64,000 nt of DNA, from positions 1 to 64,000 of IMG/VR virus record IMGVR_UViG_3300042377_000625; one strand, written 5' to 3'. Made by a program: the position numbers and the translations under genes. Source of the stretch: a virus. Shown here piece after piece: positions 6,170 to 31,488 of the stretch; positions within the stretch are counted from its first letter, which is position 1; each line of letters opens with the position of its first letter. The notes beneath the pieces were generated by a model. It worked only from the letters and a program-made list of their open reading frames with translations, ran no database searches and was not told the DNA's origin.

Positions 6170-6775
6170 ATGTCAACAGAAGTTATTGTAGCGTTTATAA
6201 CAGGTGTATTAGGTCCAGTTATTCTTCTATACGCAAAAAACAAATTTGAGAAGAACAAAGAAAAACCTGATATGGTTAAAGAAGCACTACAAGTTAGTGA
6301 ATTGATTACCTCAAAGATTGAACACATCAAAGAAGAATTCAAAGCCGATAGAGTTTGGATTACTCAATTCCATAATGGAGGTCACTTTTACCCCACGGGT
6401 AAATCAATGGCAAAATTCAGTGTTATTTATGAATCTGTCGCACCATCAGTAAATTCAATCCAATTAAATTTTCAAAATATCCCTGTTAATTTATTTAGTA
6501 AGTCTATTAATCAATTATATGAAAATGATGTAATTGAAATTTCTGACTTTAAAGACGATACAATCTCAACATTTGGTTTAAAATATATTGCTGAAGATAC
6601 AGGATGCAAATCAGGTTTCTTATTTGCAATTAAAACCATTGACGATAAATTCATTGGTACTTTAGGTATTGATTATACTAAAAGAAAAACAAAACTTGAT
6701 ATGGAATCTATAAATCACCTACAAGTTCATGCAACCGCAATCGGTGGAGTTCTTATGGGTCACCTAAACGGGTAA
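6170..6775 (+). CDS. membrane-anchored GAF-like protein, putative T4 gpT-type holin
   Basis: One N-terminal TM helix (VIVAFITGVLGPVILLY), then ADRVWITQFHNGG...FIGTLGIDY GAF-like domain; lies next to peptidoglycan peptidases. Confidence 0.5.
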   Translation: MSTEVIVAFITGVLGPVILLYAKNKFEKNKEKPDMVKEALQVSELITSKIEHIKEEFKADRVWITQFHNGGHFYPTGKSMAKFSVIYESVAPSVNSIQLNFQNIPVNLFSKSINQLYENDVIEISDFKDDTISTFGLKYIAEDTGCKSGFLFAIKTIDDKFIGTLGIDYTKRKTKLDMESINHLQVHATAIGGVLMGHLNG

Positions 6776-8308: not shown

Positions 8309-8439
8309 GTTATATTTGTTTTTATTGATAAATAAATAGGTGATTGTTGACGTAAAATCAACTTATACTTTAAAATAATTCAGATTTTCTTAACAAAGTA
8401 CAATATTTATATAAAAAATAAAAAAATATACTGTTTAGG

Positions 8440-8673
8440 TATTGTCAGAACAGTTTTTTTTATTATCTTTGTAAAACAATTCGGGGTTAGGTTGACAATC
8501 TGTTATAAAATCGTGGTTTCCTAAGACTGAAAAAAAAAACAAAAAAAAGATTTGGTAAATCGAAAAACTTTACCTACCTTTGTACAACAAAAGAGATAGA
8601 CAACGATTCAGATACAAATCTCTAAAAAAAATAAAAAAAGATTTGGTAAATCAAAAAAGTTTACCTACCTTTG
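8440..8673 (+). promoter_or_regulatory. three tandem Bacteroidota-type promoters (P2 and P3 are near-identical ~45-bp direct repeats)
   Basis: -7 boxes TATCTTTG 8464, TACCTTTG 8575 and TACCTTTG 8666. -33 TTTG at 8551 and 8642 with 20-nt spacers; A-tracts upstream. Confidence 0.75.
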
Positions 8674-8682
8674 TAAAACAAA

Positions 8683-8712
8683 TCGGAAACGTCCGAAGAA
8701 GTTCTTTGACAT
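8683..8712 (+). promoter_or_regulatory. rrn-like boxB hairpin plus boxA antitermination element
   Basis: TCGGA-AACG-TCCGA hairpin then AGTTCTTTGACAT. A matching AGTTCTTTAACAT precedes the tmRNA on the minus strand. Confidence 0.55.
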
Positions 8713-8723
8713 ATTATTATCCA

Positions 8724-9562
8724 TTATAACACTTCGGTGTTGTATAAACGATAATCGGCCGTATATGGTCGTTAAATAAACCTCGAAAGGGGGATAAAGT
8801 GAAATCATAAGTGTTAATGGTTTTGCGGTTCGGGTAACCGAACTCGAGTATACAAGTGGGATATCAGTGAGCCTGTAGTACCGAGGATAACTTCGTAGGG
8901 AAATGGAAAACTGAACGGGCAATGTGGATTGTCAGTTTGAGGTGGGAACACCAATAAGAATAACCCATAGGAATCAAGTGAGAAGTGTACTCCAAATACA
9001 CAATTGCGGGTTCCAATATAAGAGGTGACTTAAAACCGAAGGGATTAACCTGAAGGTAAGATAGAGAACGAATGGTGTCGCTACTATCCTTACCACAGAC
9101 CCACCAAGGTCTTGGTACGAAGTAATCTTAAAATATGAGAGTGGGGACACTCTACCGAGTAGACAAGTATCTTGTTGTTCAAAAGATAACGAGGCTTAAG
9201 ACGGACCTCTACTTGGAATCATCCACAACACAAAACTTATACTAAATTTAAGTAAAACTAAAAGACATATAAGCAAAAGTGTTCGTCAGGTTTTGATGAA
9301 AGTCGCCTACATAGTCATGAGTTGTTCATGGCATACTGAGACCGCAAGTCGATGTATATTGTTACCAAAAACCTCCAAGGAGTCGAATCCTGAGTCAGTT
9401 CGCAAGATTGAAGAGAGTAGAGTAGTAATAGAGTAGTTAAAACCTTAAGGAGTGATTGGTCTAACCAATCGGCGATGAGAGTTACCATTCAAAAGATGGT
9501 GGAAATGAAGGGAACCAAATAATCCTTCTAAAGATTCTCACAAAACGGTGTATTCTCAGCCT
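8724..9562 (+). ncRNA. GOLLD-like giant structured non-coding RNA
   Basis: About 840 nt with no credible ORF and higher GC. Dense hairpins with GNRA/UUCG loops and two UCAAAAG loops; A-rich linker (~9230-9270) between two domains; 3' domain GCAAAAG...UAUUCUCAGCC. Family assigned from recalled features; boundaries approximate. Confidence 0.65.
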
Positions 9563-10089: not shown

Positions 10090-10095
10090 AATGAG

Positions 10096-10481
10096 TGGAG
10101 GTAGAGGGGTTCGAACCCTCGTGTTGTACACCTTACCTATTAAGGACTACACGCTTAGGATAACATTTTCTAATGTTCCAAAAATAGTTAGTTCGTTCTT
10201 CACCATCGTAAACTAACAACCAATGGATGACTCGATTTTGGGTTCAGTCATTTTTCCACCTTTGTATAGACTTCTGTTCCTAGGTTGTATGTCCACCGAC
10301 CCGTATGGTGTTTCCTATATGTTAGGCAACAACCGCAGCTTCTTCACGGATTAATCCGATGGTCGCCATTTTGTCTAAAACGTTTCCGTTTACAGTTTAC
10401 ATCCGTAGATTTAAGTGATAGGATACATCTCACTGCGTGCCCCGAATAACTAACAATGCCAGTCAATTCCAAGTTACCCCC
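10096..10481 (-). ncRNA. ssrA: tmRNA
   Basis: 5' GGGGGUA pairs with 3' UACCUCC-A, giving the G3:U alanine determinant. T-arm GAGGG-UUCGAAC-CCCUC; 5' GGAAUUGAC motif. Tag ORF 10387-10322 = GNVLDKMATIGLIREEAAVVA* after UAAAC. CCA is not encoded. Confidence 0.93.
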
Positions 10482-28939: not shown

Positions 28940-30811
28940 ATGGGAGCATTATTAGAATCAGGTCTTGTTGGTAACATCGGGTTAAAACACCTTAAAGTTA
29001 TCAAAGAAGATACTATCAACAAATGGGATAAATTAGGATTCCTAGAAGGCCTTAAAGGTCACCTAAAAGAAAACGTAGCTCAGTTATATGAGAACCAAGC
29101 GTCTTTCTTAATTAACGAAGCAACGTCTGACGGGTCTTCAGGTTCATTTGAAACTGTTGTATTCCCTATCGTAAGACGTGTATTCTCTAAATTATTAGCG
29201 AATGACATCGTATCAGTACAAGCGATGAATTTACCAATCGGTAAATTATTCTTCTTTGTACCTAAAATTCAAGGGTATTCAGGTGGTACTAACACTCCAT
29301 GGAGTGATGTATCTTCAGGAGACCACTACGCACCACTAGGAGCACCAAACGGACCAACATCTCAAAATGCAGGTTACACAGGAACTGGAGCGGTTGCTAA
29401 AAACCTTTATGACTTATTCTACGAAGGAACTGAACCAGGTTTAGACCCAGCAGGTTTATTCGATTATTCAAAAGGTCGTTGGTCAGCAATCACTGCAAGT
29501 ACGTTGATTCAAGCATGGTCAAATGGGTCATTAGTTGATGCAACTATTAATGATGGTGCACCAGCAAATGGTATTGAAATTGCTTCAGGTAACACAAGAA
29601 AAGTTATTGTTAAAATGTGTGGTTTCGCTGATACAGGAGCTGGTAAATTAATCGGACCTGACGGTAATGAAATGGATACAGAATCTTTCTTATCTGATTT
29701 AGTTATCTTTACAGGTGCTGGTTTAACAGTTGCTGAAGGTTCTCCATGTACAGTTTCAACAGGAGCATTATTGTTCAGAGTTGTTACTCAACAATATGGT
29801 AAAGGAATCGTTTCTTACGGTAATACAGTTCAAACTAATTGGCCAGCGGCATCAGGTAATAACCCTGCAGGTAACGGTGGTTCGTTTAAAACCGTATGTG
29901 ACGCTAACGGATGTATCTACTTAGAAGTTGATTTATCTTGTCCAGTATGTGCTGATTGTGATTCTACATCTTTAGATGGTTACACAGGTACTACTATTAC
30001 TGAAGCGTCTTCAGGAACATCATTCTACGCAGCGTTCAGACGTTACGAACAATTAGAATTTGAAGATAAAATCGGTGAGGTTTCTTTCGACTTAGATTCA
30101 GTTACTGTATCTGTTACAGAAAGAAAATTAAGAGCACAATGGTCTCCTGAGTTAGCTCAAGACGTTGCTGCATTCCACAACATCGATGCTGAAGCTGAAT
30201 TAACGGCTTTATTATCTGAACAAGTTGCTGCTGAAATCGACCGTGAAATCTTAAGAGATTTACGTAAAGGTGCGGCATGGAACTTACGTTGGGATTACAA
30301 CGGATGGAGAAGAATTTCTCAAACTACATCTTATACTCAAAAAGATTGGAATCAAACATTAATTACTGCAATTAACCAATTGTCAGCACAAATCCACAAA
30401 TCTACATTAAGAGGTGGAGCTAACTGGATTGTAGTTTCTTCTGAGATTTCGGCTATTTTTGATGATTTAGAGTACTTCCACGTATCTAACGCGTCTCCAG
30501 AGCAAGACCAATACAACATGGGTATTGAAAGAGTTGGAACATTAGCAGGTCGTTACCAAGTTTACCGTGACCCTTACTTCCCAGCTAACACAGTGTTAGT
30601 AGGACATAAAGGAACGTCATTGTTAGACACAGGTTACATCTACGCACCGTATGTACCATTACAATTAACACCTACAATGTATAACCCATTCAACTTCACA
30701 CCTATTAAAGGTATTATGACACGTTACGCTAAGAAAATGGTTAACAACCGTTTCTACGGACGTATCACAGTTGATGGAGTTAGAACATTCGACTTAAGAG
30801 AATTGAGATAA
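28940..30811 (+). CDS. major capsid protein (T4 gp23-like)
   Basis: LANDIVSVQAM, RKLRAQWSPELAQD, DAEAELTALLSEQVAAEIDREI, YAPYVPL and GIMTRYA. Confidence 0.96.
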   Translation: MGALLESGLVGNIGLKHLKVIKEDTINKWDKLGFLEGLKGHLKENVAQLYENQASFLINEATSDGSSGSFETVVFPIVRRVFSKLLANDIVSVQAMNLPIGKLFFFVPKIQGYSGGTNTPWSDVSSGDHYAPLGAPNGPTSQNAGYTGTGAVAKNLYDLFYEGTEPGLDPAGLFDYSKGRWSAITASTLIQAWSNGSLVDATINDGAPANGIEIASGNTRKVIVKMCGFADTGAGKLIGPDGNEMDTESFLSDLVIFTGAGLTVAEGSPCTVSTGALLFRVVTQQYGKGIVSYGNTVQTNWPAASGNNPAGNGGSFKTVCDANGCIYLEVDLSCPVCADCDSTSLDGYTGTTITEASSGTSFYAAFRRYEQLEFEDKIGEVSFDLDSVTVSVTERKLRAQWSPELAQDVAAFHNIDAEAELTALLSEQVAAEIDREILRDLRKGAAWNLRWDYNGWRRISQTTSYTQKDWNQTLITAINQLSAQIHKSTLRGGANWIVVSSEISAIFDDLEYFHVSNASPEQDQYNMGIERVGTLAGRYQVYRDPYFPANTVLVGHKGTSLLDTGYIYAPYVPLQLTPTMYNPFNFTPIKGIMTRYAKKMVNNRFYGRITVDGVRTFDLRELR

Positions 30812-30860: not shown

Positions 30861-30882
30861 GTTTTACAAGTATTTATATTAT

Positions 30883-31296
30883 ATGAGCGAATTACGTAGA
30901 TTAATCAAAGAACATTTATTATTAGAAAAGAAAATTGGGCATATTATGGCCAAAATAGAAATTGCCTTTGGTTTTGAGATTGATAGAACTACCCACGCAT
31001 ATGAAAGAAAAAACAGAACTGATATTCCTGATTATAATGATAGAGAAATATCTAACGGTGAATTAAAATATATAATTGAGAGTTGTAGACGAGAAATTGC
31101 GGAAGGAATTACCACAGGAGAGATTAAAGATGATGTAGCATTTGTTATTAAATCAAAAGAAAAAGAAATCGCTATGGTCATAGTACCAAAACATGGTGGT
31201 GGCTCCTATTGGAAATTACTTATAATTACCGTTTTTAGAGAATCGTATGATTTATCTTTTAGAGTTGGTAAAGACCAATTTGTTATTTGGATTTAA
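30883..31296 (+). CDS. hypothetical protein
   Basis: N-terminal LRRLIKEHLLLE; HAYER...LLIITV; TATTTAT upstream. Confidence 0.7.
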   Translation: MSELRRLIKEHLLLEKKIGHIMAKIEIAFGFEIDRTTHAYERKNRTDIPDYNDREISNGELKYIIESCRREIAEGITTGEIKDDVAFVIKSKEKEIAMVIVPKHGGGSYWKLLIITVFRESYDLSFRVGKDQFVIWI

Positions 31297-31407
31297 AAAA
31301 GAACGGGACTTAGTATCTAAATCGTTTCTATCCCGTTCAAATTAGGAGGTTTTCGTCCTAACCATTATGATTGATTTAGTTGTATCTGAATCGTTTCCCT
31401 CAACCAC
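31295..31407 (-). ncRNA. candidate small RNA with two AACGAUUYAGAUAC loop motifs
   Basis: Minus-strand TATCTTTG at 31412-31419 drives no ORF. Three hairpins follow, the last ending in U6. Confidence 0.55.
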
Positions 31408-31488
31408 ATTACAAAGATAAGTAAATATACTGAATCCACAACTTTTTTTTCGAAAAAACAGATATTTATATATTAAACAGAAATAGGT

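What the first reader, a model, noticed from the sequence alone, without database searches (positions are those of the whole stretch)
31295..31419. Candidate small RNA presenting AACGAUUYAGAUAC twice; the same motif sits in the GOLLD leader 23 kb away
Seen: the minus-strand promoter box TATCTTTG (31412-31419) leads to ~110 nt with no ORF. Hairpin 1 is GUUG..GAAACGAUUCAGAUA..CAAC (motif at 31382-31397), followed by a middle hairpin UUAGGA/UCCUAA. Hairpin 3 is GAACGGGA-UAGAAACGAUUUAGAUACUAAG-UCCCGUUC-U6 (motif at 31313-31328). A third copy, AACGATTCAGATAC (8602-8615), is looped out by AGAGAT/ATCTCT just downstream of promoter P2 of the GOLLD-like RNA. All three lie mainly in hairpin loops, in transcribed orientation, right after host-type promoters, with different stems. 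Inference: an undescribed multivalent protein-binding or decoy RNA motif (sponge, antitoxin mimic or anti-defence RNA) or an antisense seed, linking an early sRNA to the giant RNA.
Basis: partly seen in the sequence, partly recalled or inferred. Interest (0 to 1): 0.8.

Follow-up and report, generated by a model that had tools for sequence, protein, structure and literature searches.

The report
Conserved phage sRNA with repeated loop
A real, previously undescribed small RNA of freshwater jumbo phages shows one to three copies of a fixed 19-base loop. The same loop-hairpin sits behind promoters in front of the giant GOLLD RNA and tRNA arrays, and it occurs in the same phage genomes as a small nuclease-like phage gene, which suggests a new RNA-protein recognition module.

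Summary
Window 31295-31411 (minus strand) is a promoter-to-terminator unit of about 117 nt with three hairpins. In 38 homologues from related T4-like lake phages, 22 of 23 base pairs show compensatory changes, while the loop GGRA-ACGAUUHAGAUAC-AA stays fixed. The unit is modular, with variants carrying one, two or three motif loops.

The third copy (8602-8615) is not a coincidence. The same motif hairpin follows host-type promoters upstream of GOLLD in at least six other phage records. It also sits upstream of tRNA arrays in others, including a 634-kb megaphage.

The sRNA is convergent with a conserved late gene for a 137-aa protein (30883-31296), and its terminator abuts that gene's stop codon. 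This pairing survives relocation to other genome positions. Across near-complete genomes, motif and gene are present or absent together. The protein gives only weak, repeated leads to RelE/RegB/DUF4258-type RNases.

No Rfam family matches. No antisense target or CRISPR repeat was found.

Three Flavobacteriaceae/Bacteroidota genome bins carry the hairpin downstream of an unrelated 159-aa gene in a mobile island.

Best reading: a protein-recognition loop, with the sRNA acting as a multivalent decoy, antidote or substrate. Binding itself is inferred, not shown.

The parts
31412..31419 (-). Bacteroidota-type -7 promoter box TATCTTTG (TAnnTTTG) of the sRNA
   Evidence: A box of this type sits at the same place in relatives (TACATTTG, TATATTTG, TACCTTTG).
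31295..31411 (-). The small RNA, about 117 nt, from just after the promoter to the U-run
   Evidence: Covariance model R1 scores 137.9 bits here and 36-140 bits in 37 related loci. Covariation was counted.
31366..31408 (-). Hairpin 1: 9-bp stem (31400-31408 with 31366-31374) and a 25-nt loop carrying motif copy 1 (31382-31395)
   Evidence: Eight of 9 pairs change on both sides.
31342..31361 (-). Hairpin 2: 6-bp stem with a CGAAAA-type loop and no motif. It is dispensable in some relatives and replaced by a third motif hairpin in L147.
   Evidence: Six of 6 pairs covary. Variants are shown.
31295..31338 (-). Hairpin 3: intrinsic terminator with an 8-bp stem, a 22-nt loop carrying motif copy 2 (31313-31326) and a U6 run (31295-31300)
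   Evidence: Eight of 8 pairs covary.
30883..31296 (+). Convergent 137-aa gene ('p145'). Its stop codon abuts the sRNA terminator. The N-terminal helix has invariant L13-x-E15, and H38, R42 and R45 are also invariant.
   Evidence: Adjacency is kept in every sRNA locus where the flank was recovered, including relocated cassettes, except L079. AF2 model pLDDT is 81.
30871..30879 (+). Late-type TATTTATAT motif 3 nt before the p145 start codon. It follows the major-capsid-gene terminator hairpin.
   Evidence: Reading it as a late promoter is inference.
8575..8582 (+). Promoter P2 -7 box TACCTTTG, part of a duplicated promoter (the P3 box lies at 8666-8673)
8592..8623 (+). Promoter-proximal motif hairpin in the GOLLD upstream region: 6-bp stem AGAGAU/AUCUCU and a 20-nt loop with motif copy 3 (8602-8615), followed by an A-run and promoter P3
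   Evidence: Equivalent modules sit upstream of GOLLD in L154, L121, L151, L135, L172 and L259.
8683..8710 (+). After P3: hairpin UCGGAAACGUCCGA followed by the boxA-like AGUUCUUUGAC, then GOLLD (Rfam hit 9155-9562). In record G007 the motif hairpin occupies the position of this hairpin.

Best explanation
Shown: window 31295-31411 (minus strand) encodes a genuine, conserved, non-coding small RNA of a clade of T4-like jumbo phages from lakes that use Bacteroidota-type promoters. Its functional unit is a hairpin whose stem is free to vary. Its 19-25-nt loop always carries GGRA-ACGAUUHAGAUAC-AA. The sRNA strings one to three such units together, and the last one doubles as the intrinsic terminator. 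Single units also stand directly behind strong host-type promoters upstream of the phage's other non-coding genes (GOLLD, tRNA arrays).

Inferred: the loop is a sequence-specific protein recognition site. The most likely reader is the 137-aa protein encoded convergently next to the sRNA. This is a late, possibly capsid-packaged protein with weak similarity to RelE/RegB/DUF4258-type endoribonucleases. On this reading the sRNA is a multivalent decoy, antidote or preferred substrate that buffers or directs that protein. The promoter-proximal hairpins would mark phage non-coding transcripts for binding or 5' processing by the same protein.
For: RNA reality:
- Promoter box, three hairpins and U-run are conserved in 38 homologues.
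- 95.9% of cells pair, 22 of 23 pairs show compensatory change, and 0 of 500 shuffles reach this. Slid controls give 33-50% pairing.

Loop versus stem:
- 85 of 91 distinct viral contexts of the 13-mer lie in a loop closed by 5 or more bp, with loops mostly 20-25 nt.
- The central base is C, U or A and never G in these 85. G appears only in coding chance hits.
- The loop flanks GGRA and AA are also conserved.

Modularity: variants carry 1, 2 or 3 motif loops.

Recurrence before non-coding genes:
- GOLLD: L154, L121, L151, L135, G007, G415.
- tRNA arrays: L093/L133/L141, L105, L126, and LR745206.1 three times.

Coupling to p145:
- The sRNA terminator abuts the p145 stop codon in every sRNA locus with the flank recovered, except L079. 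This includes cassettes moved away from the capsid gene (L112, L149, G414 at 27 kb, G418).
- Among 80 capsid-gene loci, p145 is in 8, and the sRNA is in 7 of those plus one other.
- Genome-level profile: motif and p145 are both present in G007, G414, G415 (not adjacent there), LR745206.1 and G006 (distant homologue). Both are absent in G416, G417 and G419/G420.

p145 as RNase-like (all sub-threshold):
- Invariant H38, R42, R45.
- Topology is an N-terminal helix, helices, then a 4-stranded sheet, as described for RegB (PMC3014915).
- BFVD hit to 'site-specific RNA endonuclease', E 0.018, prob 0.96.
- VIA-align hits to RelE/HigB at Z 3.2-4.5 and to a CdiA-CT/CdiI complex chain at Z 5.4.
- Nearest named Atlas cluster is DUF4258, score 0.80.
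- DUF4258 is the only Pfam family hit by more than one distant relative: 4 of 41, best E 0.015.
- The only hhalign segment against T4 RegB places H38/R42 on RegB H48/R52. H48 is catalytic and R52L is the mutant used as the regB-defective phage (PMC3014915, PMC1702504).

Against antisense: G415, G006 and LR745206.1 have motif hairpins but no sRNA next to p145. No anti-motif 3' UTR therefore exists there, yet the co-occurrence holds.
Against: - No binding or cleavage was tested, and every structural or sequence link of p145 to RNases is below significance. Foldseek against PDB found nothing at E <= 0.001. Best VIA-align Z is 5.4 where unrelated matches commonly reach 7-8. hhalign probability against RegB is 0.2%.
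- The co-occurrence rests on few, related genomes. Adjacency alone would be inherited together.
- L073/G415 has p145 without an adjacent sRNA. L079 has the sRNA beside an HNH-like gene with no p145 found.
- Three bacterial genome bins carry the hairpin next to a different gene, and no p145 homologue was found in them. The loop may therefore have another or an additional reader.
- In G007 the hairpin sits immediately before a boxA-like element, which fits a co-transcriptional role instead.
Confidence: 0.5

Rival explanations
1. Cis-antisense (type-I-antitoxin-like) regulator. The sRNA is fully complementary to the 3' untranslated stretch of the convergent p145 or late mRNA, which has no plus-strand terminator before the next gene. 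Pairing, started by loop-loop kissing, would control the stability of that mRNA. Trans-encoded motif hairpins would kiss the same anti-motif loops.
For: - The convergent arrangement, with the terminator abutting the stop codon, is conserved.
- On the plus strand hairpin 3 is followed by AAAUU rather than a U-run, so read-through is likely.
- Large single-stranded loops suit kissing contacts.
Against: - It does not explain why the loop sequence is fixed while the stems drift. Cis-antisense pairing is perfect whatever the sequence.
- In G415, G006 and LR745206.1 motif hairpins exist although p145 has no adjacent sRNA, and hence no anti-motif.
- It can coexist with the main explanation.
Confidence: 0.15
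2. Anti-defence mimic. The loop copies an RNA element of the host, or of a host-borne mobile island. The phage floods the cell with decoy hairpins to neutralise or pre-empt the protein that reads it. This would be analogous to phage pseudo-ToxI against ToxIN.
For: - Three Flavobacteriaceae/Bacteroidota genome bins (L226, L234, L187) carry one or two motif hairpins, with different stems. They lie directly downstream on the same strand of a rare 159-aa gene (P0123), in islands with a serine recombinase or integrase.
- That gene is absent from the viral collection and found in 1 of 401 genomes of its family.
- Phage copies are driven by strong promoters and are multivalent.
Against: - Two further P0123 loci lack the hairpins. 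In L255 the hairpin pair is a roughly 95-nt indel.
- P0123 has no recognisable family and its model is poor, pLDDT 54.
- The direction of copying is unknown.
- It does not explain the tight coupling to p145.
Confidence: 0.12
3. Co-transcriptional leader element (boxB/nut-like). The nascent hairpin recruits a factor to RNA polymerase so that long untranslated phage transcripts (GOLLD, tRNA arrays) escape termination.
For: - The hairpin starts 0-10 nt after the -7 box in 43 contexts.
- It sits before non-coding genes.
- In G007 it lies immediately 5' of the boxA-like AGUUCUUUGA in two leaders, exactly where other phages have a different hairpin.
Against: - In the window and most GOLLD loci another full promoter lies between the motif hairpin and the boxA leader.
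- In tRNA-type loci the hairpin is followed by a U-run, so it is itself a terminated mini-transcript.
- In the sRNA the motif sits in the loop of the terminator, and no boxA is present.
Confidence: 0.1
4. Trans-antisense seed. The exposed loop pairs with a conserved host or phage RNA that carries GUAUCUDAAUCGU.
For: Exposed loops of about 20 nt with an invariant sequence are typical seeds. Only about 31% of this phage genome, and no host genome, is available to search.
Against: - The best non-self duplex in the 92-kb record is -18.5 kcal/mol, within the range of shuffled loops, -16.4 to -21.1.
- All near-matches in the window are in the sense orientation.
- The variable central base would sit in the middle of the duplex.
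Confidence: 0.08
5. DNA-level site: an operator, or a single-strand DNA hairpin read by a nuclease or recombinase, rather than an RNA.
For: A conserved loop above covarying stems is also the signature of some single-strand DNA origins. The hairpin pair behaves as an indel in host loci.
Against: - Orientation relative to the promoter is always the same.
- The distance to the -7 box is fixed.
- The U-run terminator and a covarying motif-free middle hairpin all point to RNA.
Confidence: 0.03

Closest known systems
Type III toxin-antitoxin systems (ToxIN, AbiQ/antiQ, CptIN) and phage pseudo-ToxI mimicry
   Same: A small RNA with repeated units is genetically coupled to a small putative endoribonuclease gene. 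In those systems the RNA is both substrate and inhibitor of the protein. Phage-borne copies of such RNAs are known (from my knowledge of Blower et al. 2012, not re-read here).
   Different: - The units here are hairpins with a conserved loop, not tandem 34-36-nt direct repeats.
- The RNA gene is convergent, not upstream on the same strand.
- No ToxN/AbiQ family match appeared in the Pfam or PADLOC scans.
- The pair sits in a lytic phage beside the capsid gene, and extra copies stand before non-coding genes.
T4 RegB endoribonuclease and its GGA(G)+A-rich single-stranded target
   Same: - Both come from T4-like phages.
- The protein is small, with an extra N-terminal helix, helices and a 4-stranded sheet (PMC3014915).
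- The target is a single-stranded purine-rich site beginning GGA (PMC1702504). The loop here begins GGRA.
- There is a weak BFVD fold hit, and the H/R motif coincides.
   Different: - No sequence membership: there is no Pfam match (PF10715 would be the RegB family, from memory), and hhalign is not significant.
- The conserved site here is 19 nt and lies in hairpin loops of non-coding RNAs, not in Shine-Dalgarno regions of early mRNAs.
- p145 carries a late-type promoter, whereas regB is an early gene.
CsrB/RsmY/RsmZ-type protein sponges
   Same: Several hairpins each present the same short motif (containing GGA) in their loops. Valency varies between relatives, and a terminator hairpin can carry a site.
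   Different: - The motif is far longer (19 nt against GGA or ANGGA).
- The RNA is phage-encoded.
- I did not search for a CsrA homologue. From general knowledge, Bacteroidota lack CsrA.
Lambda nut (boxA + boxB) and rrn leader boxB-boxA
   Same: A promoter-proximal hairpin next to a boxA-like GUUCUUUGA precedes untranslated genes (G007).
   Different: The element is usually separated from boxA by another promoter, is often self-terminated, and occurs inside a terminator loop in the sRNA.
Convergent type I toxin-antitoxin pairs (bsrG/SR4, txpA/RatA)
   Same: A small RNA is convergent with a small protein gene and overlaps its 3' end.
   Different: p145 is not a short hydrophobic peptide. The conserved loop motif also occurs in trans positions with no complementary partner.

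Membership tests
Any Rfam 15 family | Covariance-model score at or above the family's gathering threshold | tested here: not met
   A whole-window scan finds only GOLLD and tmRNA. A permissive scan of 31250-31460 gives only chance-level hits of 18 bits or less, with E >= 0.28.
GOLLD RNA (RF02032) | The motif hairpin forms part of the GOLLD model | tested here: not met
   GOLLD matches 9155-9562 at 326.8 bits. The hairpin at 8592-8623 lies more than 500 nt upstream, behind a separate promoter.
Type III toxin-antitoxin (ToxIN-like) | Tandem direct RNA repeats immediately upstream of the toxin gene on the same strand, separated by a terminator | tested here: not met
   The sRNA is convergent with p145. 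Its units are hairpins 69 nt apart with unrelated stems, not tandem repeats.
Type III toxin-antitoxin (ToxIN-like) | The toxin belongs to the ToxN/AbiQ/CptN endoRNase families | tested here: not met
   Pfam and PADLOC scans of p145 give no such family.
Type III toxin-antitoxin (ToxIN-like) | The RNA binds and inhibits the protein, and the protein processes the RNA | not testable with these tools
   This needs a toxicity-rescue assay and an in-vitro cleavage assay.
RegB (T4 site-specific RNA endonuclease) | Sequence membership in the RegB family | tested here: not met
   There is no Pfam hit. hhalign of profile A3 against T4 RegB gives probability 0.2% and E 0.31.
RegB / RelE / YoeB structural family | Shared fold: two helices packed on a four-stranded antiparallel sheet | tested here: inconclusive
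   The model topology fits. BFVD gives a RegB-annotated hit at E 0.018. RelE/HigB chains score Z 3.2-4.5. These values lie within the range of unrelated matches.
DUF4258 (PF14076) | Pfam score above the gathering threshold, and the conserved His | tested here: inconclusive
   p145 itself has no hit. Four of 41 distant relatives hit at a best E of 0.015, and no other family recurs. The nearest named Atlas cluster scores 0.80. His38 is invariant across the wider family.
Csr/Rsm sponge RNA | A CsrA/RsmA-family partner protein in the same system | not tested
   No search for CsrA was made in phage or host.
nut / rrn-leader antitermination site | A hairpin adjacent to boxA on the same transcript as the protected genes | tested here: inconclusive
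   Met in G007, in two leaders. Not met in the window, where promoter P3 intervenes. Not met in tRNA-type loci, where the hairpin is followed by a U-run.
RNA anti-CRISPR (repeat mimic) | The loop or hairpin matches the repeat of a CRISPR array in candidate hosts | tested here: not met
   The 18-mer scan of 185,579 species genomes gave 73 loci. None had regularly spaced multiple copies. Partial identity to a repeat was not excluded.

The most novel reading that the evidence does not exclude
A new kind of phage RNA-protein module. A RelE/RegB-like ribonuclease is made late and may be packaged through an N-terminal LxE-type capsid-targeting helix and injected with the DNA. It would be held in check or directed by a dedicated multivalent hairpin RNA. 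Phage non-coding operons (GOLLD, tRNA arrays) would carry the same hairpin as a 'self' tag or processing signal. Mobile islands of the Flavobacteriaceae hosts would have captured the tag, possibly to sense or exploit the infecting phage.
Probability: 0.15. Interest if true: 0.85.

Novelty: new variant of a known kind. Interest (0 to 1): 0.68.

Why it matters
GOLLD is one of the largest bacterial or phage RNAs with no known function, and phage tRNA arrays are poorly understood. A short, invariant, easily mutated hairpin now ties GOLLD upstream regions, tRNA-array upstream regions, a stand-alone sRNA and one small protein gene together across many uncultured jumbo phages. That gives a concrete experimental handle: one protein, one 19-nt loop.

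If the protein is a nuclease buffered by its own RNA, this would be a toxin-antidote logic inside a lytic phage, and an RNA-based layer of temporal control in Bacteroidota phages, whose hosts lack Hfq and CsrA (from general knowledge). The host-island copies hint at an arms-race use of the same tag.

At the least, it defines a new, well-supported phage RNA family suitable for Rfam.

Tried and rejected
- Rfam at gathering and permissive thresholds found no family. ARAGORN found no tRNA in the window.
- Antisense target scan of the whole 92-kb record with RNAduplex found nothing above shuffled-loop controls, apart from the motif's own opposite strands.
- CRISPR or other repeat origin: the genome-contig scan gave 73 loci, about what chance predicts. 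Most are coding, with central G (ETIEIQ-type), and none are arrays.
The outer stem covaries.
- A GOLLD family search in five fragmentary relatives rang nowhere, including the controls, so it is uninformative.
- Foldseek against PDB for p145 gave no match at E <= 0.001. VIA-align gave only middling Z. The profile against PDB sequences found nothing. hhalign against T4 RegB was not significant.
- P0123, the host gene next to the hairpins, has no Pfam, PADLOC or Atlas lead, and its AF2 model is poor at pLDDT 54. hhalign shows it is not related to p145.
- Metatranscriptome contigs from four lake studies cover the capsid gene heavily. The sRNA region has only one or two low-depth contigs, which give no strand or end information, so expression is neither shown nor excluded.
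- L096/L159 (G419/G420) looked like a motif without p145, but the hit lies inside a coding frame.
- Resemblance of GAUU-N-AGAUAC to the universal 16S rRNA 790 loop GAUUAGAUAC (recalled from memory) needs a 1-nt insertion. By my rough estimate it is expected by chance at about 0.1-0.2, so I did not pursue it.
- Complex prediction was not used because it cannot take RNA.

Full report
CONTEXT. The window is the first 64 kb of a 92-kb IMG/VR virus record estimated to be about 31% complete. It encodes a T4-type Gp23 major capsid protein at 28940-30811. It also encodes a GOLLD RNA at 9155-9562 and a tmRNA at 10093-10481, and it uses Bacteroidota-type TAnnTTTG promoters. Runs that hold the region are lake-water metagenomes.

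OBSERVATION. The 14-mer AACGATTYAGATAC occurs exactly three times in the whole record, while the reversed-pattern control gives none. No other site lies within one mismatch. Two sites with two mismatches lie inside genes.

The only correction concerns hairpin 1. Its conserved helix is an outer 9-bp stem (31400-31408 with 31366-31374) closing a 25-nt loop, not the inner GUUG/CAAC pairing.

IS IT AN RNA? Using the capsid protein I fetched 80 related loci. The motif appeared at the same place and strand in the closest ones, with different stems. A covariance model built from six sequences found 38 homologues, once loci from a scan of the viral collection with the 18-mer were added.

On that alignment 95.9% of cells form standard pairs. 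Twenty-two of 23 pairs show changes on both sides, and none of 500 shuffles reaches the observed values. Sliding the partners drops pairing to 33-50%. The alignment was fitted to the model, which favours the structure somewhat. Even so, the compensatory changes are plain in the raw sequences. The promoter box and the U-run are also conserved.

I regard the RNA as real (about 0.9), although no transcript has been seen. Metatranscriptome contigs were uninformative.

THE UNIT IS THE HAIRPIN. Relatives carry one motif loop (L137, L059, L079, L257, L260) or two, with or without the middle hairpin. L147 carries three, its middle hairpin replaced by another motif hairpin.

Across all viral loci, 85 of 91 distinct contexts of ACGATTNAGATAC lie in a loop closed by at least 5 bp, with loops mostly 20-25 nt. 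The central base is C (55), U (20) or A (10) and never G. The six exceptions are coding or unstructured chance hits. Flanks within the loop are conserved too, giving GGRA-ACGAUUHAGAUAC-AA.

THE GOLLD LINK IS REAL AND WIDER THAN REPORTED. The 18-mer scan also returned single hairpins that start 0-10 nt after a TAnnTTTG box. Each is followed by an A-run or U-run and then a second full promoter.

- Upstream of GOLLD: L154, L121, L151, L135 (Rfam scores 298-330 bits), G415 and G007.
- Upstream of tRNA arrays: L093/L133/L141, L105, L126.
- Three times in tRNA-rich regions of the 634-kb megaphage LR745206.1.

In the window the arrangement is P2, motif hairpin, A-run, P3, a different hairpin, boxA-like AGUUCUUUGAC, then GOLLD. 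In G007 the motif hairpin sits directly before the boxA-like element in two leaders. In tRNA-type loci it is followed by a U-run, so it is a terminated mini-transcript of about 45 nt. These differing arrangements argue against a single leader function. They favour a portable recognition module.

THE NEIGHBOUR GENE. The sRNA's terminator abuts the stop codon of a convergent 137-aa gene (30883-31296). This gene has no Pfam or PHROG family. It forms a sizeable virus-only family, with 127 clusters at 50% identity.

The adjacency holds in every sRNA locus where the flank was recovered, with one exception. This includes loci where other genes separate the cassette from the capsid gene (L112), loci where it has moved elsewhere (L149) and G414 at 27 kb, with G418 also relocated. 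The exception is L079, where an HNH-like gene sits in p145's place.

Among the 80 capsid loci the gene is present in 8, and the sRNA in 7 of these plus one other.

At genome level, motif hairpins and the gene co-occur in G007, G414, G415, LR745206.1 and, with a distant homologue, G006. In G415, G006 and LR745206.1 they are not adjacent. Both are missing from G416 (93% complete), G417 (76%) and G419/G420. The sample is small and phylogenetically related, so this is suggestive rather than conclusive.

WHAT THE PROTEIN MIGHT BE. The AF2 model (pLDDT 81) has a long N-terminal helix, three further helices and a four-stranded sheet. This is the topology the T4 literature gives for RegB: RelE/YoeB-like with an extra first helix (PMC3014915). 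All similarity signals are sub-threshold but point the same way:

- a BFVD hit annotated 'site-specific RNA endonuclease' (E 0.018, prob 0.96), and a top hit in Tenacibaculum phage PTm1;
- RelE/HigB chains at Z 3.2-4.5, and a CdiA-CT/CdiI complex chain at Z 5.4;
- DUF4258 as the nearest named Atlas cluster, and the only Pfam family hit by more than one distant relative, 4 of 41;
- an hhalign segment placing the invariant H38/R42 on RegB H48/R52.

I put RNase-like at roughly 50-60%.

The gene has a late-type TATTTATAT motif just before its ATG and an invariant L13-x-E15. Another first-stage note read such LxE sites as possible capsid-targeting or prohead-protease sites. I did not test that beyond the invariance.

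ALTERNATIVES. A trans-antisense role lacks a target in the available sequence. A cis-antisense role on the p145 3' end is plausible where the two are adjacent, but it cannot explain the fixed loop or the genomes without adjacency. A nut-like role fits G007 only. A DNA-level site is unlikely, given the constant orientation, the terminator and the covarying motif-free hairpin.

A HOST-SIDE COPY. The bacterial scan was mostly noise. However, three Flavobacteriaceae/Bacteroidota genome bins carry one or two motif hairpins, with different stems. They lie just downstream of a rare 159-aa gene, in islands with a serine recombinase, an integrase and a T9SS-sorted protein.

Two further loci with that gene lack the hairpins. 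The gene is unrelated to p145, and no p145 homologue was found in those bins. This could mean mimicry in either direction, or capture of the tag by a mobile element. It remains unexplained.

VERDICT. The finding is a genuine new phage RNA family with a portable, invariant loop. Binding is not demonstrated.

Noticed in passing
window 8400-8700; also L154, L121, L127, L172: The GOLLD upstream region is a stack of near-identical strong promoters (-33 TTGACA/TTTGG plus TAnnTTTG). Each is followed by its own small hairpin unit and an A-run. Besides the motif hairpin there are other recurring mini-units, for example the P1 unit at 8470-8530 and a UUUAAC...GUUAAA unit in L121, L127 and L259.
   Followed up: partly
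L105 about 6400-6500; L126; L273: Between the second promoter and the tRNA array lies a short ORF of about 30 codons, followed by a strong terminator hairpin. The ORF begins MKNLNLNIVNPQPQ in L105, and L126 has a similar NPQPQ core. It is a possible leader peptide or small protein ahead of phage tRNA arrays.
   Followed up: no
L226 3900-4500, L234, L187 250-330 versus L255, L256: Host-island gene P0123 (159 aa, invariant C-terminal DKNHGT-W) is followed by motif hairpins in three genome bins but not in two metagenome loci. Relative to L255 the hairpin pair is a clean indel of about 95 nt.
   Followed up: partly
L079 5860-6650: In this relative an HNH-type endonuclease-like ORF sits between the capsid gene and the sRNA, where p145 normally lies. 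This is a possible homing-endonuclease replacement.
   Followed up: no
This resembles T4 prohead-protease (L/I)xE sites, so the protein may be packaged in the capsid.
   Followed up: partly
window 28940-30811: The capsid genes of this phage clade are heavily represented in RNA contigs of four independent lake metatranscriptome studies, with many strain variants.
   Followed up: no
window 31382-31395 and the other copies: If the variable central base is ignored, the motif core GAUU-AGAUAC equals the universal 16S rRNA 790-loop sequence GAUUAGAUAC (recalled from memory). This is probably chance.
   Followed up: no
window 8683-8696 versus the motif: The hairpin before boxA (UCGGAAACGUCCGA) shares GGAAACG with the 5' part of the motif loop. 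In G007 the motif hairpin replaces it.
   Followed up: partly
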